Notes: generated by a model from the sequence alone, not told the origin. Counted from the first letter of the stretch, positions 14,746-51,177 are shown. The stretch: 64,000 nt of DNA from Patescibacteria group bacterium (GCA_038061995.1 JBBTYA010000001.1:10441-74440), one strand, 5' to 3'. Numbers and translations: made by a program.

Positions 14746-14949
14746 CTATGAGGCAGGTTGCGCCGCCGCGAATTCGGCGGCATGCGCCCACAGCACTCCG
14801 CAGAAGGGGCACGCGCGAGCGTCGCCCTGCAGGCAATTCTCGCACTTGCTCCCGCTACACCGCGAACAGGAATACAGAAGGACTCCATCTTCCCCGCAGT
14901 GTGTACAGTTGCCCGCGTGCGTATGGGCGACTACCTTCTCGCTGGCCAT
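14746..14949 (-). CDS. Small Cys-rich protein with four CxxC motifs (double zinc ribbon)
   Basis: The translation MASEKVVAHTHAGNCTHCGEDGVLLYSCSRCSGSKCENCLQGDARACPFCGVLWAHAAEFAAAQPAS carries CTHC, CSRC, CENC and CPFC. It has its own terminator. Confidence 0.4.
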   Translation of the reverse strand: MASEKVVAHTHAGNCTHCGEDGVLLYSCSRCSGSKCENCLQGDARACPFCGVLWAHAAEFAAAQPAS

Positions 14950-17122: not shown

Positions 17123-17349
17123 ATGCCCATTCTCGCTGAAACAGCTTAAAGTACAAGGCCCGTGTGTGGGTATATCAAACAATCCACACGCACTATTGCC
17201 CGATACGTAAGACTTTGATACCACGCCTCCTTAAGTAGCGATGAAGCGCTCGGCACCGCTCGAATGCGTAGGCGGACCGAGTACGGCAGTCCCGCAGCAA
17301 AGGTCCTGCACGGTGAGAGATCACCTGTAGGGCACGGAGGAACACAGTT

Positions 17350-17433
17350 ATGTTCCGGCACGGCGAAGCGCGCGAGATGAAGTTCGAAGACGTGCGGCAC
17401 TTCGTGGACAAGGCGAAGGTCCAGAAGGGCTAG
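17350..17433 (+). CDS. Candidate small ORF of 27 aa with a strong Shine-Dalgarno sequence (GGAGGAA, 9 nt upstream), inside a GC-rich intergenic region
   Basis: Sequence cacGGAGGAAcacagttATG..., encoding MFRHGEAREMKFEDVRHFVDKAKVQKG. It is followed by a 10-bp perfect hairpin at 17452-17476 and a terminator at 17538-17566. Confidence 0.25.
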   Translation: MFRHGEAREMKFEDVRHFVDKAKVQKG

Positions 17434-17537
17434 CACCGCGGCTGAAGACGAAAAGATGTGGGGGCCACAAGCCCCCACATCCCCCTCCACTACCGTTCTT
17501 TACAGAATCACAGCGCGCCACACGGCGCACAACAAGG

Positions 17538-17566
17538 GGCCTCGCGGAAACGCTCGAGGCCTTTTT
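17538..17566 (+). terminator. Rho-independent terminator (+ strand)
   Basis: Stem ggcctcg cggaaacgct cgaggcc followed by ttttt. Confidence 0.4.
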
Positions 17567-17618
17567 CATACCTAAAACTGCCTATTTTCCTTGCTTTTTT
17601 CGGCTATATTCGTGGTTG

Positions 17619-17648
17619 TTGACATATATAGTGGAAATGTGATAGTAT
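17619..17648 (+). promoter_or_regulatory. Sigma70-like promoter (TTGACA, then 17-18 nt, then TAGTAT/ATAGTA)
   Basis: Sequence TTGACAtatatagtggaaatgtgaTAGTATatata. It lies upstream of a ~550-nt terminator-delimited unit. Confidence 0.4.
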
Positions 17649-17838
17649 ATATACAGTTCCGTAAAAACCAATAGCGCGGGCCGGGCCACATTGGCCGCCC
17701 GCACACAAGAAAAACCCGTTGCGCAAAATCGCCCCGCTCGGCCGACCCCCTCGATGGGCTCGCGCGCCGACAAGGCACACGCGCAGCATGTCCGCTTGTA
17801 AGAGCGCTGGAAACGCCTTACGAGCAAGGAGAAGCGCT

Positions 17839-17940
17839 ATGCACGCTCACTCCCCGCCCGTCGCGGGAACCCTGGAGAAGAAATTCAAGTTCGACTTCGA
17901 CAAGGGCCTGGCCGGCGACAACGGCACCCTCCTGAAGTAG
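17839..17940 (+). CDS. Candidate small ORF of 33 aa with a Shine-Dalgarno sequence (AGGAGA, 6 nt upstream), inside the promoter-to-terminator unit 17619-18212
   Basis: Sequence caAGGAGAagcgctATG..., encoding MHAHSPPVAGTLEKKFKFDFDKGLAGDNGTLLK. The track shows a longer 73-aa in-frame version starting at 17719. Confidence 0.3.
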   Translation: MHAHSPPVAGTLEKKFKFDFDKGLAGDNGTLLK

Positions 17941-18179
17941 GGCGTCGGCGCCTCCGCTCGTAACCCCCCACTCCGCCATCGTTCCACGACGGGACGAAAG
18001 AGAGATCGGGGGGAACCGGCAACCACAGTCGGCGTAGAGCGTTTCCGAAGGCATTTCTGAAGGTGCCCAAGGAGAAGCCTACGCAGAGAAAGGACTAAGA
18101 ACCGCCACCCACCGCAGCCCTGGCACGGCAGGCACCGCCCCCACACGGGGAGCGCGCCCAAGAGTGGGTTGACCAACAA

Positions 18180-18212
18180 GGGGCTCCGACACATCGGAGC
18201 CCCTCTTTTATT
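18180..18212 (+). terminator. Rho-independent terminator (+ strand)
   Basis: Stem ggggctccg acacat cggagcccc followed by tcttttatt. Confidence 0.45.
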
Positions 18213-18229
18213 ACTCCAAAACGCGGGAA

Positions 18230-18258
18230 TTGACAGTTGTTATAAAAGACAGTATACT
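18230..18258 (+). promoter_or_regulatory. Sigma70-like promoter (TTGACA, 17 nt, TATACT) heading a ~300-nt ORF-less unit that ends at the 18531-18573 terminator
   Basis: Sequence TTGACAgttgttataaaagacagTATACT. Confidence 0.4.
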
Positions 18259-18530
18259 CTTTTTAGCACTTTTCATCCGTCATCCCCATCGCCCCCCCAC
18301 GCAGGTTTCAGCAATCTTCGTGGGGCCAGCCCCTTTTGACTCCTAAAGGGCCGATTCGTGTGCATAGTCTTTCTCCAGGCAAAGGTGCACACGCCATGCA
18401 GCCGTCCGAAGGTCGGCAAAGAAGGAATCGAGAGAGCCCCCTCTCTTGAACGTCTCTGCATGGTCCCGCTGATGCGCAAAGCAAACGCATCAGACCTCCT
18501 TTCGCGGCGCTTGCCGCACGTCGCCGTTCG

Positions 18531-18573
18531 CCCCTCGTGTAATCCGGGATATCACGAGGGGCTTTTTCTTTTT
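18531..18573 (+). terminator. Rho-independent terminator (+ strand)
   Basis: Stem cccctcgtg ... cacgagggg followed by ctttttcttttt. Confidence 0.45.
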
Positions 18574-19555
18574 ATAAACTCGACACCTTCACGGGCACCA
18601 ATGGCCACGGACCCCAATTCCCTTTCGTGAGGATGCCTTTCTTTGCACCGAATTCAGTAACTACCGATGATGCATTTGCAGTGCCAAACTGAATCGCTTT
18701 TGCGATATCTCCAGAGCGCGCATATTCACATACAAACCCAGAGCTGAAGGCATCACCCGCCCCCGTGCGCTCCACTACCGGCGATGCGGGCACGCTCGCT
18801 GTATATACTTTTTTCCCATCAGAGACAGAAACGCCGTTCGGCCCTTTCGTGAGTACAAAAATACCGTCGATGAGGCGATCCATAGTTTCAAAAATGTCTT
18901 TCTCGTTTTGATATGGGATGCCCAAAAAATCAGCAGCTTCTTCTTGATTCATAATCACCACGGAAAAGTGTTTCAGCAGTGGCTTAAGCTTTTCTAAACC
19001 ATGCGCAAGCTCTTTTCCGCCCGGATTGATGGCGAGCTGGATCTTATTGTCACGCGCCCAGAGCGTCGTTGTTTCGAGAACTTCCCAGCTTCCGCCTAGA
19101 CTACTTACAAATGCCCACGTAGATTGAAGGCGGTCGTAGGGAATACCCACGGTTGTGAAGTGTTGCCCCTCACCCTTGTAGGAAAGAATGGTGCGCTCTC
19201 CGTCTTCGTTTACGAGCACCACAGAATAAGCGGTCATGCCATCGTCGTGAGTCAGCACATATTTCGGATCCACGCCTTCTTTGCGCAACACATCAAGAAT
19301 ATCTCGGCCGTTCGCATCATGCCCCACCACGCCAATAAACGCCGTGTTCAAACCTTGACGCGCAAACGTAACTGCCGTGTTCGTTCCCCCACCACCAGAA
19401 GCGAGAACGATCTCGGGTACTTCAATTTTTGAGCCAAGACCAAATGCAAGCCCCCGCTTTTCGGGAAATGCGTCGTTCTGTATTATGAGCGGCGAACGAA
19501 GCTTTAGAAAAGTATCTTGTGTTGCGGATCCAAATACAATGATGTCGTACTGCAT
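18572..19555 (-). CDS. PfkB-family carbohydrate kinase (ribokinase-like)
   Basis: GAGDAF motif near the C-terminus and the ribokinase-like fold signature (DIIVFGSATQD..., GGGGTNTAVTFARQG). Confidence 0.8.
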   Translation of the reverse strand: MQYDIIVFGSATQDTFLKLRSPLIIQNDAFPEKRGLAFGLGSKIEVPEIVLASGGGGTNTAVTFARQGLNTAFIGVVGHDANGRDILDVLRKEGVDPKYVLTHDDGMTAYSVVLVNEDGERTILSYKGEGQHFTTVGIPYDRLQSTWAFVSSLGGSWEVLETTTLWARDNKIQLAINPGGKELAHGLEKLKPLLKHFSVVIMNQEEAADFLGIPYQNEKDIFETMDRLIDGIFVLTKGPNGVSVSDGKKVYTASVPASPVVERTGAGDAFSSGFVCEYARSGDIAKAIQFGTANASSVVTEFGAKKGILTKGNWGPWPLVPVKVSSL

Positions 19556-27461: not shown

Positions 27462-27809
27462 CTAGTCGTGGAACCCGCACATCAGAGCGGCGCGTTCTGC
27501 CGGAGTGAGCTTCGCGAGAGCCTTCTCTCGAAGCTTTGCCTCGGCTTCGGGGTTCTTGCTGATCTCGACGATCTGCGGAGTAAGAACGTAGCGGCCATCC
27601 GACAGCTTCAGAGCGAGCGTAGGCTTCACTTTACCGTCAGGACCCGAGTACCCGAGCCCGCTCGCGCCGAGTACCGCATCGTGATGCGTGAGGTGATACG
27701 AAGCAACGTAACTTCCTTCGTACGTTTCGGCAATCGCAGCGAAGATGGTGACAACTTCGGCAACCACTTGGTCGCCTTCAGCGAGTGGCTTCTTCTTCTC
27801 TTGGTCCAT
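27462..27809 (-). CDS. Hypothetical protein
   Basis: 115-aa ORF. Confidence 0.35.
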   Translation of the reverse strand: MDQEKKKPLAEGDQVVAEVVTIFAAIAETYEGSYVASYHLTHHDAVLGASGLGYSGPDGKVKPTLALKLSDGRYVLTPQIVEISKNPEAEAKLREKALAKLTPAERAALMCGFHD

Positions 27810-27890
27810 TTGAGCCTCCGCGCATGATGTACCACGATTTCAAAACACACGCAAGAATACATAGATGATCTAGATAATTAAAGAAATAAC

Positions 27891-28021
27891 GTGCGATATT
27901 CCCCTGAAGACCATTCGGAGCCCGAGCGGGCAGGGTGTCTCCGTAAGGAGACGAGCGAGGGCGAGTGAGACCGCGCGGTCCCGCTGGGACCGCGACGGGA
28001 GTCGGAAGGGGGATGTCGCAC
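27891..28021 (+). repeat. Structured repeat family, copy C (divergent variant). It has 13-14-bp inverted arms (gtgcgatattcccc / ggggatgtcgcac) around a core cattcggagcccgagcgg...gagcgagggcgagtgag.
   Basis: Shares the 11-mer tcggagcccga and the gacgagcga...gggcgag motifs with copy B. It lacks the tcgcagga hairpin and instead holds other GC hairpins (gtctccgtaaggagac, ggtcccgctgggacc). Confidence 0.45.
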
Positions 28022-28044
28022 GGATTTCGGGGGATTCTGCGCAA

Positions 28045-28075
28045 CATAAAACACCCCTTGCGGGGTGCTTTATGA
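28045..28075 (-). terminator. Rho-independent terminator after the RRM protein gene
   Basis: Minus-strand stem caccccgcaaggggtg followed by ttttatgtt. Confidence 0.45.
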
Positions 28076-30504: not shown

Positions 30505-30669
30505 CTAACCCTTTCGGATCGCGTGCGTCAGTAGCCCAACCCCGCACACGAAACATGCAAGTGCAACCGTGTTGGAAAGTTGCAGGTCGCATGCGATGAA
30601 CATGCCAAGGCTGAAGCACACGAGACCGAAGCCAAGAACGCCACGTCGCTTGTAGAGCGCAAGCTTCAT
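30505..30669 (-). CDS. Small hydrophobic protein of 54 aa with a Shine-Dalgarno sequence
   Basis: GGAGGTG lies 5 nt upstream of the ATG. The translation is MKLALYKRRGVLGFGLVCFSLGMFIACDLQLSNTVALACFVCGVGLLTHAIRKG. It falls below the track's 60-aa cutoff. Confidence 0.35.
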   Translation of the reverse strand: MKLALYKRRGVLGFGLVCFSLGMFIACDLQLSNTVALACFVCGVGLLTHAIRKG

Positions 30670-40636: not shown

Positions 40637-42315
40637 AGAGTTGGGGCTGGAGAAAGTGTCGGGGATGGGAACAGCGCATCACGAATAGGAATCAGTTCTG
40701 GAAGCAATGCAACGCCAGCGCGCTCAAGGAAGAGAATATGCTCACGAGCCTCATCGATACGGCCTGTCTGCGCTGTTAGTAGTGCGAGACCTTGATGCGC
40801 GAATGAGTACCACGGATTGATGGCAAGCGCCTGGCGCCAAAGTTGTTCCGCCCCCGCTTCCTTTCCTTGGAACAAAAGTGTGATCGCGAGATTGTGATAC
40901 GCGGGAGGAAATCCTGGGTTTCGCTCTATCTCTTTAGCAAATGCATCTTGCGCGGCAGGAATATTATGCATAAACAGATATACAGACCCAATGTTGTTCC
41001 ACACACGCTTTGCTTCTGGGTGTAACGCGAGTGCGCGTTGGTGTAAAAAGAGTGCTTGTCCTACATTGCGCTTGCGGAAAAATTCTGTACCGAGACCGTC
41101 TTGTGCGCGAGCAAGGCCAGGAGATTGCGCAGCGGCAAGCGTCCAATACGTTTCGCTATCTTTAAACGCCGGCAAACGCTGTACCGTGTGAAAAGCGAAG
41201 AACACTGCAACGACAACCAGCGCTCCACGTGCAATCATGAGTGGCTTTCGCGGGAGAAGACGCACTAAACTAAGCGCTGCGATCATAATGCCTACCATTG
41301 GCATGTAGAGGCGATTCTCGAAAAAGACCTGGCGCGCAGTTGGCTCGTTCGTCACGAGCGACGGAAGCAGAAAGAGCACAAACCACACGAATCCAAATTG
41401 TGCGAGCTGTGTTTTCTTTCGAAAGACAATAATGGTGATAAGCGCACCGAGCGCCAACACGCCACCAATGATCATATTCGTAGGATCGCCCGTTGGCATA
41501 AGCGCTAAACGAACAGGAACCACTGCTTTCGTGATGTATTCCAAAAAGGCACCGCCTGATCGCAGTACAGAGAGGATCGCCTCACCAAAGGAAAGTGTTT
41601 GAACATGTGCCAGTGCTAATGTACGAGCGATGGCGTAGAGTATCCAACCACCAACCCAGACAATGCCTTCTGAAAGTGTGAACGCAGTGCGCCAATGCCA
41701 GCGACGCACTAGTACCACGTACGCATAGGCGACTAGTGGCAACACCACGGCGTATTCTTTCGCACCGAGCGCAATGATCCAGAATAGTGCGTGCGCAAAA
41801 AGATACCAGCGCTTCTGCGTGTGGGTATAGCGAATAAAGAACCAAAAACTCGCCAAGAGAGGAATAGCAGCGAGAATGTCATTTCGCCCAGGCACCCATG
41901 CCACTGCGGGCACCAGTGCAGGATGCGCGGCAAATGCGAGTGCGCCACCGAGCGCGGCCCATGGACCGAAACTCAACGCGCGCAACACGGCAAGTACAAG
42001 CAGGGCCCCCATAGCATGGAGCGCGATGTTCATACCGTGGTACCACAGTGGACGCTCGCCAGCGATATGCGCATCTACCATGAAGGAGAGCGTTTGCACG
42101 GGACGATAGAACACCGAGCGACCAAAAGGATACGCCGTATCAGTTGTAAACGCTTTTGGTACGTTTTCTATACTCTGTAAGAAACTTTGACGATCAATAA
42201 TCAGTTCATCTTCATCAAAATGAACAAAATTAAAACGAAGCGCCTGCGCATAGAGTGCGCAGACACATATGAGAAGCACAGCAACCTGTACCTTCCCTGA
42301 AGGCAAGTACCGCAT
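40633..42315 (-). CDS. Polytopic membrane protein with C-terminal TPR repeats (possible ArnT/PMT_2-like glycosyltransferase)
   Basis: More than 10 TM helices at the N-terminus, and C-terminal TPR motifs (ALHPEAKRVWNNIGSVY..., AYHNLAITLLFQG). Confidence 0.55.
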   Translation of the reverse strand: MRYLPSGKVQVAVLLICVCALYAQALRFNFVHFDEDELIIDRQSFLQSIENVPKAFTTDTAYPFGRSVFYRPVQTLSFMVDAHIAGERPLWYHGMNIALHAMGALLVLAVLRALSFGPWAALGGALAFAAHPALVPAVAWVPGRNDILAAIPLLASFWFFIRYTHTQKRWYLFAHALFWIIALGAKEYAVVLPLVAYAYVVLVRRWHWRTAFTLSEGIVWVGGWILYAIARTLALAHVQTLSFGEAILSVLRSGGAFLEYITKAVVPVRLALMPTGDPTNMIIGGVLALGALITIIVFRKKTQLAQFGFVWFVLFLLPSLVTNEPTARQVFFENRLYMPMVGIMIAALSLVRLLPRKPLMIARGALVVVAVFFAFHTVQRLPAFKDSETYWTLAAAQSPGLARAQDGLGTEFFRKRNVGQALFLHQRALALHPEAKRVWNNIGSVYLFMHNIPAAQDAFAKEIERNPGFPPAYHNLAITLLFQGKEAGAEQLWRQALAINPWYSFAHQGLALLTAQTGRIDEAREHILFLERAGVALLPELIPIRDALFPSPTLSPAPTL

Positions 42316-42349
42316 GGATTTTTACTCTAGCATGGCGTCCTAAAAAAGC

Positions 42350-42602
42350 AATAAAAAATGAACGCCCCCACGATCTCTCGTGGGGGCTGGGGTTGTTCTC
42401 GGCTACCGCGCTAGCGGTAGCCGGCGGGCAACCCCTTCTCGGGGCTCCAGGCACCCAGCTTCTCGCTGGGCCGGAGCCAGGGGGCCGCGGGGGCCGCCTG
42501 GTGCGTGCCCCGCGTGATGCACGCGGGGGTACGGCGCGTCGGCTTGTGAACCATAGTTCACCTCCTGTCTTTAATTATAGCACGTAATAGTATAAAAGTC
42601 AA
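42350..42602 (-). promoter_or_regulatory. Compact expression unit. It consists of a canonical promoter (TTGACT, 17 nt, TATAAT), a perfect Shine-Dalgarno sequence (AGGAGGTGA), a 47-codon GC-rich ORF (42411-42554) made of consecutive perfect hairpins, and a rho-independent terminator. It lies 35-60 nt upstream of the TPR membrane gene. It is either a candidate structured leader/ncRNA or a small protein gene.
   Basis: The -35 is at 42597-42602 and the -10 at 42574-42579. ATG is at 42554 and the stop TAG at 42411. The peptide is MVHKPTRRTPACITRGTHQAAPAAPWLRPSEKLGAWSPEKGLPAGYR. The RNA folds into 9-10-bp perfect stems (cccccgcgtg/cacgcgggg, cggctaccgc/gcggtagccg). The terminator is cccccacga...tcgtggggg plus TTTTTT. 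Confidence 0.4.
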
Positions 42603-42609
42603 CTCCTCT

Positions 42610-43212
42610 TTACGGGCGGTTTACGAGGAGAGAAAAGGGGTTTAATGCCTCTCGGCGCAGATACATCCCTAGGTGAAGGTGCGGTGGTGTTGTCACCGCA
42701 TTGCCCGTATTACCCACAAATCCAATCACTGTATCAGTGGTCACCCACTGCCCTGCCGCTATACCTTCGGCAGATCTATCGAGGTGAGCGTAGTAATAGC
42801 GAAGTCCTCCCGCACCAGCGATCCACACTGTGTTGCCGCCCAGCTCTCGATCTTCTTGAACGCGCACAACGTATCCCTTCGTTGCAGAAAAAATAGGCGT
42901 TCCACGAGATGCAAAAATATCTTGCCCTTCATGCCCGCGATCTTCACCGCGAGGCGCACCCCATGTATCGCTCACTTGGCGCACTGAAACGCCATAGACA
43001 GGCATCACCAACACTGCATCAGGTTCCTGCGCGCTTAAGCGTGCAAGCTTCAAAGGAAACGTGATACGGAATAAAAAAGAGTCTATATACTCTGCAATGC
43101 GTAACGTAGCGTCGGGATGCGTTTCAGGAAAGCGTACTATAAAAAACGCGCCCCAGATAAGCGCGACTACAGCGATACAGGTACCAGCAAAAAGAATGAA
43201 CCGTTGCTGCAT
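42610..43212 (-). CDS. M23-family metallopeptidase
   Basis: HEGQDIF, YAHLD and GNTGNAVTTPPHLHLG motifs (HxxxD ... HxH). Confidence 0.75.
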   Translation of the reverse strand: MQQRFILFAGTCIAVVALIWGAFFIVRFPETHPDATLRIAEYIDSFLFRITFPLKLARLSAQEPDAVLVMPVYGVSVRQVSDTWGAPRGEDRGHEGQDIFASRGTPIFSATKGYVVRVQEDRELGGNTVWIAGAGGLRYYYAHLDRSAEGIAAGQWVTTDTVIGFVGNTGNAVTTPPHLHLGMYLRREALNPFSLLVNRP

Positions 43213-43221
43213 GTCACAGTA

Positions 43222-43740
43222 TTATAACGTACGGCTGTCATATGCCCAATGAAGAAGCGCCTGGCGCTGTTTCGGACGGCATGTAACATCTCCCGCCTTG
43301 CAGTTTTTGCGCACTTGCGCGACGTGGCGCCGAATTGCCTTCCAGCGCTTGATCTGCCGTGCATCTTCTTCTGGCATGCGACGGCCCATATAATACCGAC
43401 AGTACCACTGAAACCACCCGCGAGGATCATCGGGGTGGATCCACCCCTTCTTCTGCCAGACAGAAAGCGGTTGGCTCGCCCGAACCTTAAAAAAGTTTAT
43501 CGAGGGATCATGCCTTTCGGGAGAAAGCTTCGCGTGCATGAACCAATCTGCAGGAAACTCATCACGACAATCGGTCATGTATTTTCCTCCAAAGACACCA
43601 AGTGCGAGCATCTCCTTTGGCGAAAGGCCTGGCGTAAAAACGGGATCAAACTGTTTGCCCATTGGCGCAACGCACCCATATGAATACCCGCGTTGCATTT
43701 TGTCATGCACAACAATCATGCGCTTGGAGACCATACTCAC
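43222..43740 (-). CDS. Hypothetical protein with a W/Y-rich conserved block (GWFQWYCRYYMGRR...IKRWK)
   Basis: 172-aa ORF. The motif was noted but the family is not recalled with confidence. Confidence 0.4.
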   Translation of the reverse strand: MSMVSKRMIVVHDKMQRGYSYGCVAPMGKQFDPVFTPGLSPKEMLALGVFGGKYMTDCRDEFPADWFMHAKLSPERHDPSINFFKVRASQPLSVWQKKGWIHPDDPRGWFQWYCRYYMGRRMPEEDARQIKRWKAIRRHVAQVRKNCKAGDVTCRPKQRQALLHWAYDSRTL

Positions 43741-44117
43741 TATTGGAAAGCGACAGAAAAACTATACATCCCCATAGCACAGACACCGCGCATAGTCGTG
43801 CCGGGAGTCTGCGCTGGAACAGGAATACGCGTTTCACCAGACATTGGCAGGTTCGCACGATACTCGAGAGCTGGAATAGTGAGGGCGCCTGAACAGTCAA
43901 AAGTCCCCTGAGTTATTACGTTAAAGACAGTTGGTAGATTCGCAGATGCCATGGTCTGACGCGGAGCATAGCCACCCTTCGCATAAATAGTAACCACCTG
44001 CACGCCATCAACGACGGCCACATTGTTCTCGTATGATTGGTTATCCCCGCGCGAGAAAAGAAGAGAACCCGCTACTAATGCTATCGCGGCCACCATGGCG
44101 CCAATAATTAATTTCAT
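43740..44117 (-). CDS. Hypothetical secreted/periplasmic protein
   Basis: N-terminal hydrophobic helix (MKLIIGAMVAAIALVAGSLLF), then a domain with Cys/Met residues. Confidence 0.35.
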   Translation of the reverse strand: MKLIIGAMVAAIALVAGSLLFSRGDNQSYENNVAVVDGVQVVTIYAKGGYAPRQTMASANLPTVFNVITQGTFDCSGALTIPALEYRANLPMSGETRIPVPAQTPGTTMRGVCAMGMYSFSVAFQ

Positions 44118-44147
44118 AACAGTGTATCGAGTGTAGCACGACAACCA

Positions 44148-45167
44148 CTAAAAGCCGAGGATCGGTGGCAGTACACCGAGGGCAACCATGCTATTGATCG
44201 CGTTTAGGATGCCGAAGAATAATACGACCAGCCCAGCGGTTTTAAAGAAAACGCTCGACTGCTTCTTTGTACGCACCCCCAGAGACCCGAAGCTCAAGAG
44301 CGCCAATACTGGCAACGTACCGAGCGCAAAGAAAAGCATAGTGAGCCCACCCGCCATAAACCCTCCCACAGATAACGTATAGATCTGCATTGACTGTGTA
44401 AAACCGCACGGCAAGAAGAACGTTGCAACACCCGCAACAAGGGGAAAGATGGAGCTGTGGAGAGCCCGCGTTTTTTGCACCGATGCACCGAAGAATGCTG
44501 GAAGTGACGGTTGTAGTTTACGCGCCCAAGGAAATACATCAAGTAAATTAAGTCCGAGGATCATGAGCACCAGCGCTACGATCATCCCCAAGAGGAACGT
44601 CCCCGTAGCTCCGAGCTGGAACGATGCGCCAACCATACCGATCACACCCCCAAGGACAAAGAAGGAAATAAGGCGCCCTACATGAAATAGAAGCTGCGGT
44701 CGCATCTTCTCACCCTCTTGAGCAAAGTGCGTTGAGAGCGAGAGCACGAGGCCACCAACGACCGCCATACATGTTGAGATAGATGCGATAGCACCAATAA
44801 GAAATGCGGTGCCATACCCTACCTCTGATGCATTTACCCAATTCACCACTCCCATACTCTGTAAAAGAATAAACACTCCAACAAAGATACCCGCGAATGG
44901 GAGCGCGAGCGCAAAATCACCCCATCGCGCCTGGTGCGCTTCCTGAACAAGCGAAACGGTGTATCCATGCGGTTGCATCACCGCAGTAAGGTCTTCGGCG
45001 ATATGCTGCGGTTGCTTGTCACCGAAATCACCGGTAACGGTAATAGTCTTTGTATCAAGCGATGCACGTATGTGTGAGACTTCAGGCAACTCCCCTATAA
45101 GCGTTTCTGACAAAGCAGCGCAAGATTTGCAACGCATGCCATTAAGGTGAAATGTGTATGTACTCAT
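44148..45167 (-). CDS. Heavy-metal-associated (HMA) domain fused to a DsbD/CcdA-like thiol-disulfide transmembrane permease
   Basis: N-terminal HMA motif GMRCKSCA, then about six TM helices with Cys residues in TM segments (STCMAVVGG, FFLPCGFTQ). Confidence 0.6.
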   Translation of the reverse strand: MSTYTFHLNGMRCKSCAALSETLIGELPEVSHIRASLDTKTITVTGDFGDKQPQHIAEDLTAVMQPHGYTVSLVQEAHQARWGDFALALPFAGIFVGVFILLQSMGVVNWVNASEVGYGTAFLIGAIASISTCMAVVGGLVLSLSTHFAQEGEKMRPQLLFHVGRLISFFVLGGVIGMVGASFQLGATGTFLLGMIVALVLMILGLNLLDVFPWARKLQPSLPAFFGASVQKTRALHSSIFPLVAGVATFFLPCGFTQSMQIYTLSVGGFMAGGLTMLFFALGTLPVLALLSFGSLGVRTKKQSSVFFKTAGLVVLFFGILNAINSMVALGVLPPILGF

Positions 45168-45168
45168 T

Positions 45169-45438
45169 TTATTTTCGCTTCAAACGATATACGGTTAATA
45201 TCTCTTCCTGCGCCTTCTGTGTCTGCCCTGCGCGGATTTGCTCTACGACACAGGTGTTTAAATGCCCCTCCAGCAATAGGTCTTCGACGCGAGAAAGCCC
45301 CTGTTTTACGGCCGATGTTTGCGCAATAACGTCGATACAATAGACGCCCTTCTCCACGAGGTCTTGCAAGCCACGCACCTGACCTTCAATAATTTTGAGG
45401 CGGCGTACTATAGAATGTATGTTTGGTATGCGTGTCAT
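45169..45438 (-). CDS. csoR: CsoR/RcnR-family metal-sensing transcriptional repressor
   Basis: 89 aa with the Cys, His, Cys pattern of the CsoR family (YCIDVIAQ...LEGHLNTCV). Confidence 0.75.
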   Translation of the reverse strand: MTRIPNIHSIVRRLKIIEGQVRGLQDLVEKGVYCIDVIAQTSAVKQGLSRVEDLLLEGHLNTCVVEQIRAGQTQKAQEEILTVYRLKRK

Positions 45439-45449
45439 AGATACGGTGT

Positions 45450-45635
45450 ATGAAAAGTGAGGGATGAGGCCGTATAAACGACCCCACCCCTCGTGTTAGG
45501 GAGCAGCTCGAACGAGAGCTACTCCCTGGTACCGCAGCCCTCTTCGCAGTGGGCCACGGCCCGAAGGAACCACTTGCAGCGCATGGTGCACCTCCTTTCA
45601 CATTCCAGTATACCCCCCTGGGGTATCTATGTCAA
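45450..45635 (-). promoter_or_regulatory. Leader unit upstream of csoR. It consists of a canonical promoter (TTGACA, 17 nt, TATACT), a Shine-Dalgarno sequence (AAGGAGGTG), a 21-codon Cys-containing ORF (45519-45584) and a terminator-like hairpin ~10 nt before the csoR start.
   Basis: The -35 is at 45630-45635 and the -10 at 45607-45612. The peptide is MRCKWFLRAVAHCEEGCGTRE. A hairpin gggagtagctc/gagctgctccc is followed by gaggg...ccctc and TTTTCAT. Confidence 0.35.
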
Positions 45636-46115
45636 TAGGCTGTTCAGTTGATAAATGCTCCAGTTTAGATATGCCGCAAAACTCACCCACGCGATGTAGG
45701 GCACAAGCAAAAGCGTCGCAGTGCGTGAAATAGGGTAAAACGCACGCATAGTTGCAAGAATCGCAATGATTAAAAAGAGAATCTCAATGAACGCGGCCCC
45801 GGGATTTCGCAGGCCAAAAAACACAATGGACCAGAGCGTATTAAGCCCGAGCTGAATAAGAAAGATGCCGAGCGCTACACGAACATCCTGCCGACGCATT
45901 CCCCTTTCCCACACCAACCATACTGCAATGCCCATGAGAAAAAAGAGGGTGACCCACACGGGGCCGAACACCCAGCTTGGCGGCGCGAACGCTGGCCTTA
46001 AGAGATACACGTACCAGCTCGAGATGGCATTCACCGTAAAGAACGATCCGAGAATTCCAGCGAGTTGAGAAGCGCTAATAGTAATAACGAGTCGGAGAAA
46101 TGAGTTACGCTTCAT
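45627..46115 (-). CDS. tspO: TspO/MBR (tryptophan-rich sensory protein) family membrane protein
   Basis: Five TM helices with PPSWVFGPVWVTLFFLMGIAVWLVW. Confidence 0.8.
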   Translation of the reverse strand: MKRNSFLRLVITISASQLAGILGSFFTVNAISSWYVYLLRPAFAPPSWVFGPVWVTLFFLMGIAVWLVWERGMRRQDVRVALGIFLIQLGLNTLWSIVFFGLRNPGAAFIEILFLIIAILATMRAFYPISRTATLLLVPYIAWVSFAAYLNWSIYQLNSLLT

Positions 46116-50253: not shown

Positions 50254-50529
50254 CTATCCTAGTGCGGGGATTAGCACCCTCCAGAGAGTGATAGCAGCCA
50301 TAAGGAATGGCACTACCACCCCGAAGAATGCGACAAACTTCTTGAAACCGGAAGTCTCTAAAAACGCCTTGCTCCATGTCACGAACACGAAGCCGTTAAT
50401 ACAGAGCTGAAGCAAACCTGCGAGCAGATTAGCTCCCACGAACAGGTTCGTACAGTTGGCGATCAAGAAGAACGAAAGTCCAGCTAAACCAGAAGCGGCC
50501 ATGAGCCTTGAGTTCTTATCCAATTGCAC
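50254..50529 (-). CDS. Hypothetical small membrane protein
   Basis: 91-aa hydrophobic ORF between the island and the tRNA. Confidence 0.3.
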   Translation of the reverse strand: MQLDKNSRLMAASGLAGLSFFLIANCTNLFVGANLLAGLLQLCINGFVFVTWSKAFLETSGFKKFVAFFGVVVPFLMAAITLWRVLIPALG

Positions 50530-50575: not shown

Positions 50576-50854
50576 TGGCTCCGCGGGTAGGACTCGAACC
50601 TACAACCCTCTCGTTACACGAATTCCAGTATTTTCATACCGGCGTGGACTATATCTTCACCATATCGCATATGCGACACAGGCGTTCTGGTATCTAGTCT
50701 CTACGGCGCCCCCGCCGAGGCGGGGTTCCCACGGTATTACCTCTCGTAAAAAACGAAGGGGCTTCACCGTTATCCCAGAAAGTTTCAATGCGCCTTTCGA
50801 CGCAAAGCTGCGTTTATCTCACAGCGAGACGCTCTACCATTGAGCTACCGCGGA
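50576..50854 (-). tRNA. tRNA-Asn (anticodon GTT) interrupted by a ~204-nt group I intron (50617-50820) in the anticodon loop between positions 35 and 36. It encodes the 3' CCA.
   Basis: The 5' exon TCCGCGGTAGCTCAATGGTAGAGCGTCTCGCTGT and the 3' exon TAACGAGAGGGTTGTAGGTTCGAGTCCTACCCGCGGAGCCA join to a canonical cloverleaf. The intron carries group I conserved elements: the S-like AAGATATAGTCC and the R-like GTAGAGACTAGATACC. The internal guide sequence GCAGC pairs with exon GCUGU, giving a U.G pair at the 5' splice site. The intron ends with G. Confidence 0.7.
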
Positions 50855-51177
50855 ATATTTTTTGTATAAGTGCTTGGAATCTTTCTTACCTTTGCGTGTA
50901 TCTCTCGATGACAATTTGCACACACCAGAATGCATTTATCAGCTTCCGCCTTTATCTTTTCTAGAGATCGCGTAAGCCCCCGAGCTGAAAGCCCGAACTC
51001 TTTCTGATGCGCGACTACGTGATGCAGATCAAGGGCCCAAATAGACCGCTTATATCCGCAAAACACACACGCACCACCTCTATATGCCACAACGAGAGAT
51101 CGAAGCTTGCGCCTTCGCGCTGCAACAGCCTTTTTGAGATACTCAGCTCGATCGCGATAGGTTCTCACATCTGGCAT
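50845..51177 (-). CDS. HNH endonuclease, free-standing, immediately upstream of the intron-containing tRNA
   Basis: CVFCGY...LDLHHV...CANCHREIH HNH zinc-finger motifs. The start was placed at MPDVRTY (51177), which has a TATACT element 9 nt upstream. Confidence 0.6.
   Translation of the reverse strand: MPDVRTYRDRAEYLKKAVAARRRKLRSLVVAYRGGACVFCGYKRSIWALDLHHVVAHQKEFGLSARGLTRSLEKIKAEADKCILVCANCHREIHAKVRKIPSTYTKNIPR

What the first reader, a model, noticed from the sequence alone, without database searches (positions are those of the whole stretch)
42350..42602. Textbook promoter, SD, 47-codon hairpin-rich ORF and terminator cassette immediately upstream of the TPR membrane/glycosyltransferase gene
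The cassette combines TTGACT, 17 nt, TATAAT with AGGAGGTGAACT-ATG and an intrinsic terminator. Together these are the strongest expression signals seen in the window, but the product is only 47 codons. The coding RNA is ~75% GC and folds into successive perfect 9-10-bp hairpins, which is unusual for a protein-coding sequence. The terminator ends ~35 nt before the start of the downstream 560-aa TPR membrane protein gene. The cassette could be a transcription-attenuation or riboswitch-like leader, possibly with a leader peptide, that controls the downstream gene. It could instead be an independent small RNA or micropeptide gene. The architecture is the same as the csoR leader unit at 45450-45635.
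Basis: seen in the sequence. Interest (0 to 1): 0.6.

Follow-up and report, generated by a model that had tools for sequence, protein, structure and literature searches.

The report
Orphan GC-rich small gene, not a leader
The cassette is a real, self-contained small gene (strong promoter, ribosome-binding site, 47-codon reading frame, terminator) found only in one small clade of groundwater Patescibacteria; its sequence looks both protein-coding and constrained as a folded RNA, and it does not act as a control leader for the neighbouring gene.

Summary
It comprises TTGACT-17-(TG)TATAAT, AGGAGGTG-6 nt-ATG, a 47-codon ORF at 76% G+C, nested hairpins and a 10-bp terminator that ends 35 nt before the TPR gene. 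The leader or riboswitch reading is not supported. The TPR gene has its own conserved leaderless-type promoter after the terminator. A sister lineage lacks the cassette but keeps that promoter. The terminator has no competing antiterminator, and Rfam gives no match. The unit is present and constrained in two lineages whose synonymous sites are saturated (cassette 87.6% identical; flanking pS 0.6-0.75). Coding signals: G+C by codon position is 31/32/44 of 47 (P=0.002), 12 of 25 substitutions are synonymous (P=0.012), and the SD and ATG are kept while the spacer changes. RNA-level signals: pS in the ORF is only 0.17, and five pairs show compensatory changes, in the start-site hairpin, the stop-codon hairpin and the terminator. 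No homologue was found anywhere else. Best reading: an independent small-protein gene on a highly structured mRNA, possibly a dual-function RNA. A pure sRNA remains a live rival. In this window, strong SD sequences occur almost only on such small-ORF cassettes (1 of 52 long genes has one). Interest is modest.

The parts
42574..42602 (-). Sigma-70-type promoter: -35 TTGACT (42602-42597), 17-nt spacer ending in TGc (extended -10), -10 TATAAT (42579-42574). It starts 7 nt after the M23 stop codon.
   Evidence: 11 of 12 matches plus TG, tied best in the window. The hexamers are invariant in the three variants while the spacer varies.
42552..42566 (-). Shine-Dalgarno AGGAGGTG (9-nt match to the canonical anti-SD), a 6-nt spacer and the ATG start codon.
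   Evidence: The SD and ATG are invariant. The spacer changes (TGAACT, TGGCAT, TGAGCCAT), giving a spacing of 6 to 8 nt.
42546..42561 (-). Start-site hairpin H0: GTGAAC-TATG-GTTCAC. It encloses the 3' end of the SD and the AUG.
   Evidence: One compensatory pair changes A-U to G-C in L009. The 2-nt insertion in L012 lengthens the stem to 7 bp.
42411..42554 (-). 47-codon ORF plus TAG: MVHKPTRRTPACITRGTHQAAPAAPWLRPSEKLGAWSPEKGLPAGYR.
   Evidence: The frame, length and stop are kept in all 3 variants. G+C by codon position is 31/32/44 of 47 (P = 0.0023). 12 of 25 substitutions are synonymous (P = 0.012). pN/pS is 0.22-0.55 in this frame and 0.95-2.1 in the other two.
42443..42528 (-). ORF-internal hairpins: H1 CCCCGCGTG-CAT-CACGCGGGG (42528-42508), H2 (about 42501-42477) and H3 GGCTCCGG/CCCAGC-GAGAA-GCTGGG/CCTGGAGCC (42478-42443).
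   Evidence: The stems are almost invariant across lineages whose flanking synonymous sites are saturated. Invariant pairs give no covariation information.
42389..42435 (-). Stop-codon hairpin H5: GGGGTTG..GGCTACCGC-TAGC-GCGGTAGCC..CAACCCC. The TAG stop codon lies in the tetraloop.
   Evidence: helix 7. Two pairs show changes on both sides, and most changes in L012 keep pairing through G-U.
42353..42387 (-). Intrinsic terminator: 10-bp stem (8 G-C), a GNRA loop (GAGA, or GCGA in relatives), then GUUCAUUUUUU. It also ends M23 transcripts, because M23 has no terminator of its own.
   Evidence: Two compensatory pairs (helix 8). Pairing probability above 0.99. In L005 a different, simple terminator follows M23 instead.
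42313..42351 (-). Not part of the cassette: the TPR gene's own promoter, TTGCTT (42351-42346), 16 nt, TGc-TAGAGT (42329-42324), 8 nt, ATG (42315). This is the spacing expected for a leaderless mRNA.
   Evidence: Read directly from the sequence. Conserved in cassette-bearing and cassette-free relatives.
42610..43212 (-). Upstream neighbour: membrane-anchored M23 peptidase gene, with a TATAAT 8 nt before its ATG. Its transcripts must run into the cassette.

Best explanation
The cassette is a stand-alone transcription unit of about 215 nt in an uncultured groundwater Patescibacteria (Paceibacterota/Parcubacteria) genome. A near-consensus promoter drives an mRNA whose 5' end carries a perfect Shine-Dalgarno sequence and an AUG. 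Ribosomes translate a 47-residue, Pro/Arg/Ala-rich peptide that is predicted to be unfolded. A small conserved hairpin over the SD 3' end and the AUG tunes initiation. The very G+C-rich stems inside the ORF, the hairpin that holds the stop codon in its loop, and the terminator make the RNA compact and are themselves under selection. The transcript is therefore a structured mRNA and possibly a dual-function RNA. The terminator also ends transcripts of the upstream M23 peptidase gene. The downstream TPR/glycosyltransferase-like gene is transcribed separately from its own promoter. Shown here: the signals, their conservation, the independence from the TPR gene, the codon-phase signals and the nucleotide-level constraint. 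Inferred: that the promoter fires, that the ORF is translated, and what the peptide or RNA does. The role is unknown. The unit is accessory, not housekeeping, because a sister lineage lacks it.
For: Signals. Independence from the TPR gene: the TPR promoter is conserved with and without the cassette, and there is no antiterminator. Age and constraint: there are three lineages at about 78% nucleotide identity. The cassette is present in A (the window) and B (CP129474, L012, L013) and absent in C (L005, L004). Flanking pS between A and B is 0.60-0.75, yet the cassette is 87.6% identical. The spacers expected to be free are near saturation: 5 of 7 positions between the stop codon and the -35, and 4 of 6 between the SD and the ATG. 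This argues for old vertical inheritance with selection rather than recent transfer. Coding: G+C by codon position is 31/32/44 of 47 (P = 0.0023). All 12 two-fold codons end in G or C. 12 of 25 substitutions are synonymous against 25% expected (P = 0.012). pN/pS is 0.22-0.55 in frame and about 1-2 out of frame. There are no indels in the ORF, while a 2-nt indel lies just upstream of the ATG. RNA level: pS in the ORF is 0.17 against 0.6 in M23 (P = 4e-6). Five pairs have changes on both sides (2 of 500 shuffles reach this). Five of the six stem changes in L012 keep or gain pairing. Genome context: other small ORFs in the window have the same promoter-SD-ORF-terminator layout and clearly protein-like products. 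These include a 54-aa and an 89-aa membrane peptide and a 67-aa Cys-rich zinc-ribbon-like protein.
Against: Only three distinct sequence variants exist, so every statistic rests on about 25 substitutions. No protein homologue was found among 1.84 billion representatives: the two hits are repetitive artefacts, a fish immunoglobulin heavy chain and a repeat protein. Pfam and PHROGs give nothing. AlphaFold2 gives no secondary structure (pLDDT 66, pTM 0.17). All three forward frames are open in this G+C-rich stretch, so the open frame alone means nothing. pN/pS of about 0.5 between A and B is weak purifying selection for a protein. Gene callers did not call this ORF; one called a 78-aa antisense ORF instead. 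Parcubacteria often lack the anti-SD motif (PMC9297842), and I could not read this organism's 16S rRNA 3' end.
Confidence: 0.5

Rival explanations
1. It is a non-coding small RNA. The transcript is the product. The ORF is incidental to the G+C-rich sequence. The 5' AGGAGGUG is a stabilising or ribosome-binding 5' element, or simply part of the 5' stem.
For: Nucleotide-level constraint goes well beyond what a protein needs: pS is 0.17 against 0.6-0.75 in the flanks. There are compensatory changes in three helices. The long ORF-internal stems are invariant. The whole transcript has z = -7. There is no protein homologue and no predicted fold. All frames are open.
Against: The three-base G+C periodicity is in phase with the SD-ATG frame (P = 0.0023) and there is an excess of synonymous changes (P = 0.012). 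The SD and ATG are kept at a workable spacing while the spacer between them turns over. Covariation lies only at the start-site hairpin, the stop-codon hairpin and the terminator, which are ordinary mRNA features. There is no Rfam match.
Confidence: 0.25
2. It is a cis-acting leader (leader-peptide attenuator or riboswitch). The strong promoter feeds the TPR gene through regulated read-through of the terminator.
For: The layout, promoter-SD-short ORF-hairpins-terminator directly upstream of a gene, resembles classical attenuators. The similar csoR unit in the same window really does sit in a leader position. The first 5 nt after the terminator stem (GUUCA) hold only two U, so some read-through is conceivable.
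Against: The TPR gene has its own promoter after the terminator, and this promoter is conserved in relatives that lack the cassette. Read-through RNA would give the TPR gene a leader of more than 250 nt, without an SD, in place of its leaderless-type start. There is no mutually exclusive antiterminator: the terminator's 5' arm stays unpaired when the 3' arm is absent or blocked, and the terminator survives every ribosome position tested. The ORF has no run of any single amino-acid codon. There is no Rfam match.
Confidence: 0.07
3. It is a functionless remnant of foreign high-G+C DNA, for example a fragment of a gene from a high-G+C donor or a phage, that landed between M23 and the TPR gene and happens to sit behind a promoter.
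For: G+C at third codon positions is 0.94, against a mean of 0.51 and a maximum of 0.73 for 52 long genes. None of 14,558 47-codon windows in those genes reaches 0.9. The unit is an orphan. It is absent in one lineage. The neighbourhood is a recombination mosaic.
Against: The cassette is 87.6% identical between lineages with saturated synonymous sites, while its own spacers are saturated. The promoter hexamers, SD, ATG, stop codon and terminator are all kept, and the terminator shows compensatory changes. A neutral insert would have drifted towards the host's G+C content.
Confidence: 0.08
4. It is a small non-autonomous mobile element (MITE-like) carrying an outward-facing promoter part. It inserted at TGCT and created a hybrid promoter.
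For: There is a presence/absence polymorphism at one exact site. TGCT occurs at both junctions, and there is weak inverted similarity of the ends (ATAATTAAAGAC... versus ...GTTCATTTTTTAT), read. In L012 the cassette is 86-95% identical to L009 while the immediate flanks are 99-100% identical.
Against: There is a single copy in the 64-kb window, and none in about 200 kb of relatives' loci other than the orthologous site. No copies turned up in metagenome, viral, phage or plasmid searches. The terminal repeats are poor, and a 4-nt junction repeat in A+T-rich DNA is expected by chance. One gain or one loss on the three-lineage tree explains the distribution.
Confidence: 0.05

Closest known systems
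Dual-function (coding) small RNAs such as SgrS/SgrT, RNAIII/delta-haemolysin and SR1/SR1P (from general knowledge)
   Same: It is a short, strongly expressed, highly structured transcript with its own promoter and terminator. It carries a short SD-led ORF. Constraint is visible at both the codon level and the RNA level.
   Different: There is no sequence or family relationship. No base-pairing target or regulatory role is known. The ORF takes up two thirds of the transcript. The host is a Patescibacteria lineage in which such RNAs have not been described.
Leader-peptide transcription attenuators (trpL, hisL, pheL type; from general knowledge)
   Same: The order of parts is the same: promoter, SD, short ORF, stem-loops, and an intrinsic terminator just before a gene.
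   Different: There is no terminator/antiterminator alternative and no diagnostic codon run. The downstream gene has its own conserved promoter, and the unit is dispensable in a sister lineage.
The csoR leader unit of the same window (45436-45635, minus strand)
   Same: It has a strong promoter, a perfect SD 5-6 nt before an ATG, a short ORF with high third-position G+C (21 codons), conserved hairpins with compensatory changes, and a terminator-like hairpin. It also varies in presence among close relatives.
   Different: There is no sequence homology beyond the SD. The csoR unit lies between the only, CsoR-operator-bearing promoter and csoR, so it is a true 5' leader. Its ORF is Cys/His-rich (MRCKWFLRAVAHCEEGC).
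Other small SD-led genes of this window (54-aa and 89-aa membrane peptides; 67-aa Cys-rich protein)
   Same: The layout is the same: own promoter, strong SD, short ORF, own terminator, and third-position G+C above the host average.
   Different: Those products look like ordinary small proteins (transmembrane helices, CxxC pairs), and their mRNAs are far less G+C-rich and less structured (z = -1.7 and -3.6).
STAB-SD 5' mRNA stabiliser of Bacillus (cryIIIA; from general knowledge)
   Same: A perfect SD-like sequence lies within about 10 nt of the predicted 5' end of a stable-looking RNA.
   Different: In STAB-SD the SD is not followed by a start codon at a working distance. Here an ATG follows at 6-8 nt in all variants.

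Membership tests
Leader-peptide transcription attenuator | It lies in the 5' leader of the regulated operon, with no separate promoter between it and the gene. | tested here: not met
   TTGCTT-16-TGcTAGAGT, 8 nt before the TPR ATG, lies after the terminator. It is conserved in relatives with and without the cassette.
Leader-peptide transcription attenuator | It has mutually exclusive terminator and antiterminator structures coupled to ribosome position. | tested here: not met
   Constrained folds: the 5' arm stays unpaired in the nascent RNA and when the 3' arm is blocked. The terminator stays intact with a ribosome mid-ORF or at the stop codon. All helices are compatible at once.
Leader-peptide transcription attenuator | The leader ORF holds a run of codons for the sensed amino acid. 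| tested here: not met
   There is no tandem run of any residue in MVHKPTRRTPACITRGTHQAAPAAPWLRPSEKLGAWSPEKGLPAGYR.
Leader-peptide transcription attenuator | It ends in an intrinsic terminator. | tested here: met
   A 10-bp stem plus a U-run, maintained by two compensatory pairs.
Riboswitch or other curated cis-regulatory RNA (Rfam 15) | It matches a family covariance model. | tested here: not met
   No hit at the gathering threshold in the window. The best sub-threshold local hits are on the wrong strand or are miRNA models.
Protein-coding small gene | The start codon and ribosome-binding site are conserved in orthologues. | tested here: met
   AGGAGGTG and ATG are invariant, and the spacing is 6-8 nt although the spacer sequence changes.
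Protein-coding small gene | The substitution pattern and composition are in phase with the codons. | tested here: met
   12 of 25 substitutions are synonymous (P = 0.012). G+C is 31/32/44 of 47 by codon position (P = 0.0023). In-frame pN/pS is 0.22-0.55 against 0.95-2.1 out of frame. These figures rest on only 3 variants.
Protein-coding small gene | Homologous proteins or a predicted fold exist. | tested here: not met
   No true hit in 1.84 billion representatives, Pfam or PHROGs, or JGI and IMG/VR pattern scans. AlphaFold2 gives pLDDT 66 and no secondary structure.
Protein-coding small gene | The product is detected (translation). | not testable with these tools
   This needs metaproteomics or a reporter fusion.
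Trans-acting or dual-function small RNA | It is a discrete transcript with its own promoter and terminator. | tested here: met
   Shown by sequence signals only; no expression data are available.
Trans-acting or dual-function small RNA | Its structure is supported by covariation. | tested here: inconclusive
   5 of 69 pairs have changes on both sides (2 of 500 shuffles reach this), and 96.6% of cells are paired against 40-51% when the partners are slid. There are only 3 sequences, and the ORF-internal helices never vary.
Trans-acting or dual-function small RNA | It has a defined target or regulatory activity. | not tested
   Only 11-nt chance matches were found in the window. No systematic target search was made.
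MITE-like mobile element | Several copies occur at unrelated sites, with terminal inverted repeats and target-site duplication. | tested here: not met
   Only a single orthologous site is seen in all the sequence held, and no copies were found elsewhere. The end repeats are weak. The complete genome CP129474.1 could not be scanned.

The most novel reading that the evidence does not exclude
In this Parcubacteria lineage ordinary genes have essentially given up Shine-Dalgarno initiation: 1 of 52 long genes has an SD, and many have a -10 box placed for leaderless mRNAs. A perfect SD survives only on a handful of strongly promoted, G+C-rich small-ORF transcripts. The most novel reading not excluded is that this hyper-stable 215-nt RNA acts mainly on the ribosome itself. 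It would work as an abundant anti-SD/30S-binding RNA (a decoy, or a tag for a specialised ribosome pool) that partitions ribosomes between SD-led and leaderless translation, with the peptide secondary or absent.
Probability: 0.07. Interest if true: 0.7.

Novelty: new member of a known kind. Interest (0 to 1): 0.3.

Why it matters
Small proteins and small RNAs of Patescibacteria (CPR) are almost unstudied, and gene callers miss them. This ORF was never called, and one pipeline called a spurious antisense ORF instead. The cassette is a clean candidate for a dual-constraint (coding plus structural) transcript in an organism with a genome of about 0.6 Mb. The broader pattern may matter more than this one gene: strong SD sequences are confined to small-ORF cassettes, while normal genes lack an SD and often look leaderless. 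That pattern bears on how translation starts in Parcubacteria, where loss of the anti-SD motif has been reported (PMC9297842). For annotation, the practical result is that this is not a riboswitch or attenuator of the TPR/glycosyltransferase-like gene.

Tried and rejected
- Rfam gave nothing, either at the gathering threshold on the whole window or at a permissive E-value on the locus.
- ARAGORN found no tRNA or tmRNA here.
- A housekeeping RNA (SRP, 6S or RNase P RNA) was considered and rejected. There is no model match, no conserved SRP domain IV motif by eye, and the unit is absent from a sister lineage.
- The 47-aa peptide was searched against 1.84 billion protein representatives. The two hits are repeat-driven artefacts.
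- The 78-aa antisense ORF that a gene caller had predicted was searched against 5.8 billion clusters and matched only itself.
- Peptide-pattern scans of JGI metagenomes and IMG/VR found nothing.
- An exact 24-mer from hairpin H3 found nothing in metagenomes. The 17-mer gave 7 chance hits in viral contigs with no extended similarity.
- blastn against phage and plasmid collections gave nothing meaningful, only a 41-nt Streptomyces match.
- Homology between this cassette and the csoR unit was tested and rejected: only 8-mers match.
- Recent lateral transfer was considered as the cause of the A-B similarity and judged unlikely. The cassette's own free spacers are near saturation, and the flanks show no shared high-identity tract beyond about 70 nt of the M23 3' end.
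- Coding on the plus strand was rejected. The plus-strand frame whose third positions coincide with the G+C-rich phase has three stop codons and no start signals.
The single-sequence model is uninformative.
- I did not build a covariance model. Three near-identical sequences would find only what BLAST already finds.
- I could not obtain this organism's 16S rRNA 3' end or scan the complete genome CP129474.1.

Full report
**What is there.** The finding lies on the minus strand.
- The promoter TTGACT-17 nt-TATAAT occupies 42602-42574. It has a TG two bases before the -10 hexamer.
- With 11 of 12 matches plus the TG, it ties for the best promoter match in the whole window.
- AGGAGGTGAACTATG follows at 42566-42552.
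- The ORF runs from 42554 to the TAG at 42413-42411. It has 47 codons and 76% G+C.
- The 120-nt G+C maximum of the window (0.79) lies at 42355-42584.
- A 10-bp terminator stem (42387-42364) is followed by GTTCATTTTTT. The TPR gene's ATG is at 42315.
- The transcript 42567-42350 folds at -127.5 kcal/mol, z = -7.0. The ORF alone gives z = -2.7.
- So composition explains much of the hairpin richness inside the ORF. The excess comes mostly from the hairpin that holds the stop codon in its loop and from the terminator.

**Source and relatives.**
- The 560-aa TPR protein is encoded identically on contigs from Hainich groundwater metagenomes. NCBI names it as from a Patescibacteria group MAG.
- Its 90% identity cluster has six members, and I fetched the context of all of them.
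- No other TPR homologue exceeds 44% identity, so this small clade is all the comparative material available.
- Nucleotide identities define three lineages about 78% identical to each other:
  - A is the window.
  - B is CP129474.1 (a complete 615-kb Candidatus Paceibacterota genome) plus L012 and L013.
  - C is L005/L014 plus L004; these two are 87% identical to each other.
- The cassette fills the same 294-nt gap between M23 and the TPR gene in A and B.
- In L005 the M23 gene is followed by a simple terminator (GGAGCGGCGC-atatata-GCGCCCG-TTTTT) and then the TPR promoter.
- L004 lacks both M23 and the cassette.
- One gain or one loss explains this distribution.

**It is not a leader of the TPR gene.**
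- Downstream of the terminator, all genomes share TTGCTTTTTTAGGnnGCCATGCTAGAGTAAAAnnnCATG, with or without the cassette. This reads as a -35-like TTGCTT, 16 nt, TGc-TAGAGT, then 8 nt to the ATG.
- That spacing is the one seen at many genes of this window, where a TANNNT hexamer ends 5-10 nt before the start codon (14 of 52 long genes). It implies a leaderless or near-leaderless TPR mRNA.
- A read-through transcript would bury that ATG behind more than 250 nt of leader with no SD.
- Constrained folding finds no antiterminator. The terminator's 5' arm is unpaired in the nascent RNA and when the 3' arm is blocked.
- The terminator also persists with a ribosome placed mid-ORF or at the stop codon.
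- Rfam gives nothing.
- M23 has no terminator of its own, because the -35 starts 7 nt after its stop codon. The cassette's terminator therefore also ends M23 transcripts.

**It is under selection.**
- Between A and B the flanking genes have pS of 0.60-0.75 and nucleotide identity of 68-80%. The cassette is 87.6% identical over 258 nt.
- Divergence within the cassette is very uneven:
  - 5 of 7 positions differ between the M23 stop codon and the -35.
  - 4 of 6 positions differ in the SD-ATG spacer.
  - The hexamers, SD, ATG, long stretches of the ORF, the stop codon and the terminator stem are kept.
- This unevenness fits long vertical descent with purifying selection better than a recent transfer.
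- The flanks show no shared A-B tract apart from the last 70 nt or so of M23.
- L012 is a local mosaic. Its cassette is 86-95% identical to L009 while the immediate flanks are 99-100% identical. Its changes follow the same rules: they fall in spacers and loops, are synonymous, or keep pairing.

**Coding or RNA.** Both kinds of signal are present.

Signals for coding:
- G+C by codon position is 31, 32 and 44 of 47 (chi-square P = 0.0023), and all 12 two-fold codons end in G or C.
- No 47-codon window in 52 long genes of this window reaches a third-position G+C of 0.9.
- Of 25 substitutions on the three-sequence tree, 12 are synonymous against 25% expected (P = 0.012).
- pN/pS is 0.22-0.55 in the SD-ATG frame and 0.95-2.1 in the other two frames.
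- The only indel near the ORF, 2 nt in L012, lies just upstream of the ATG. It changes the SD-ATG spacing from 6 to 8 nt.

Signals for RNA-level constraint:
- pS within the ORF is 0.17. M23 has about 0.6 (P = 4e-6), and the last 20 M23 codons next door show six synonymous codon changes and no replacement.
- Five of 69 predicted pairs changed on both sides. Only 2 of 500 shuffles reach this. 96.6% of cells are paired, against 40-51% when the partners are slid.
- Five of the six stem substitutions in L012 keep or gain pairing.
- The covarying pairs lie in three helices: the hairpin over the SD 3' end and the AUG, the hairpin with the TAG in its loop, and the terminator.
- The ORF-internal helices never vary and so say nothing either way.

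Against a protein:
- There is no true homologue in 1.84 billion representatives, and none in Pfam or PHROGs.
- AlphaFold2 predicts no secondary structure.
- All three forward frames are open.
- pN/pS between A and B is only about 0.5.

**Genome context.**
- Only 1 of 52 long genes has an SD-like motif 4-18 nt upstream.
- Perfect SDs, up to GGAGGTGATC, sit on short ORFs that have their own promoter and terminator:
  - 14746-14949, 67 aa, Cys-rich
  - 30505-30669, 54 aa, membrane
  - 50254-50523, 89 aa, membrane, behind the other top-scoring promoter
  - 27462-27809, 115 aa, phrog_5370
  - 18308-18490, 60 aa
  - this cassette and the csoR leader ORF
- Several of these products are plainly protein-like. 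That raises the prior that the 47-codon ORF is also translated.
- A published survey found the anti-SD motif in only 48% of Parcubacteria (PMC9297842). I could not read this organism's 16S rRNA.
- Conservation of the SD across saturated lineages argues that it is used.

**Most likely mechanism.**
- The cassette is an independent, strongly transcribed, monocistronic small gene. Its product is a 47-residue Pro/Arg-rich peptide made by SD-dependent initiation.
- A conserved start-site hairpin tempers that initiation.
- G+C-rich stems, themselves selected, stabilise the mRNA. The transcript may therefore also work as an RNA (a dual-function RNA).
- My confidence is about 0.5 for a translated, structure-constrained transcript, 0.25 for a pure sRNA, 0.07 for a leader, 0.08 for a functionless foreign remnant and 0.05 for a MITE-like element.
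- The biological role of the peptide or RNA is not known. It is accessory, because lineage C lacks it.

**Comparison with known systems.**
- It works most like the dual-function small RNAs (SgrS/SgrT, RNAIII/hld, SR1/SR1P). It belongs to no known family.
- It shares the order of parts with leader-peptide attenuators. It fails three of their four defining features tested here.
- The csoR unit at 45436-45635 shares the architecture and is a true leader:
  - A CsoR-type operator, ATACCCCAGGGGGGTAT, overlaps its -10.
  - It holds a 21-codon Cys/His-rich ORF.
  - Four pairs show compensatory changes over four variants.
  - It is absent from CP129474, where csoR is leaderless.
  - It has no sequence homology to this cassette.

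**Limits.**
- There are only three distinct variants and no expression data.
- The anti-SD sequence is unknown.
- The complete genomes could not be scanned for further copies.

**Verdict.** This is a real and selected but orphan small gene. The leader interpretation is not supported, and interest is modest.

Noticed in passing
window 50576-50862 (minus strand): A tRNA gene appears to be split by a group I intron. The 5' half reads tccgcggtagctcaatggtagagcgtctcgctGTGag. Rfam Intron_gpI matches 50830-50625 at 44.5 bits (E = 3.6e-10, just under the gathering score of 50). The 3' half ends ggttcgagtcctacccgcggagcca. ARAGORN and the Rfam gathering-threshold scan both missed it.
   Followed up: partly
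whole window; e.g. 14746-14949, 18308-18490, 27462-27809, 30505-30669, 45519-45584, 50254-50523 (all minus strand): Translation signals fall into two classes. Only 1 of 52 long genes has an SD-like motif, and 14 of 52 have a -10-like TANNNT ending 5-10 nt before the start codon (leaderless type). Perfect SDs are found on small ORFs (21-115 codons) with their own promoters and terminators and above-average third-position G+C. This may relate to the reported frequent loss of the anti-SD motif in Parcubacteria (PMC9297842).
   Followed up: partly
window 45436-45635 (minus strand); L005 3497-3685: The csoR leader has a TTGACA-17-TATACT promoter with a CsoR-type operator, ATACCCCAGGGGGGTAT, over the -10. 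An AUG-UGA start-stop lies where a leaderless start would be. Then come an SD, a 21-codon ORF (MRCKWFLRAVAHCEEGC plus a variable tail) and three hairpins. Four pairs show compensatory changes across four variants. The last hairpin is terminator-like and abuts the csoR ATG. The whole unit is absent in CP129474.1, where csoR starts 6 nt after the -10. It could be a copper-related leader peptide or attenuator.
   Followed up: partly
window 43222-46115 versus L009, L012, L013 and L005: The copper-resistance neighbourhood (csoR, HMA-DsbD_2 membrane protein, cupredoxin-like protein, and a CopA P-type ATPase present or absent) is a recombination mosaic. CopA is present in L009 and L012 but absent in the window and L013. 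csoR alleles are only about 50-65% identical between genomes that are otherwise 98-99% identical.
   Followed up: partly
window 17200-18600 and 27890-28046: These are further G+C-rich (about 0.70), hairpin-rich stretches without convincing genes. The first holds an 11-of-12 promoter on the plus strand (18230-18258) and an SD-led 60-codon Cys-rich ORF. Neither has an Rfam match.
   Followed up: no
L008, L010, L011 (e.g. L008 5729-5965, minus strand of the locus): A gene caller predicted a 78-aa ORF antisense to the cassette in several assemblies. It has no homologue other than itself and is almost certainly spurious, a by-product of the absence of stop codons in G+C-rich sequence.
   Followed up: yes
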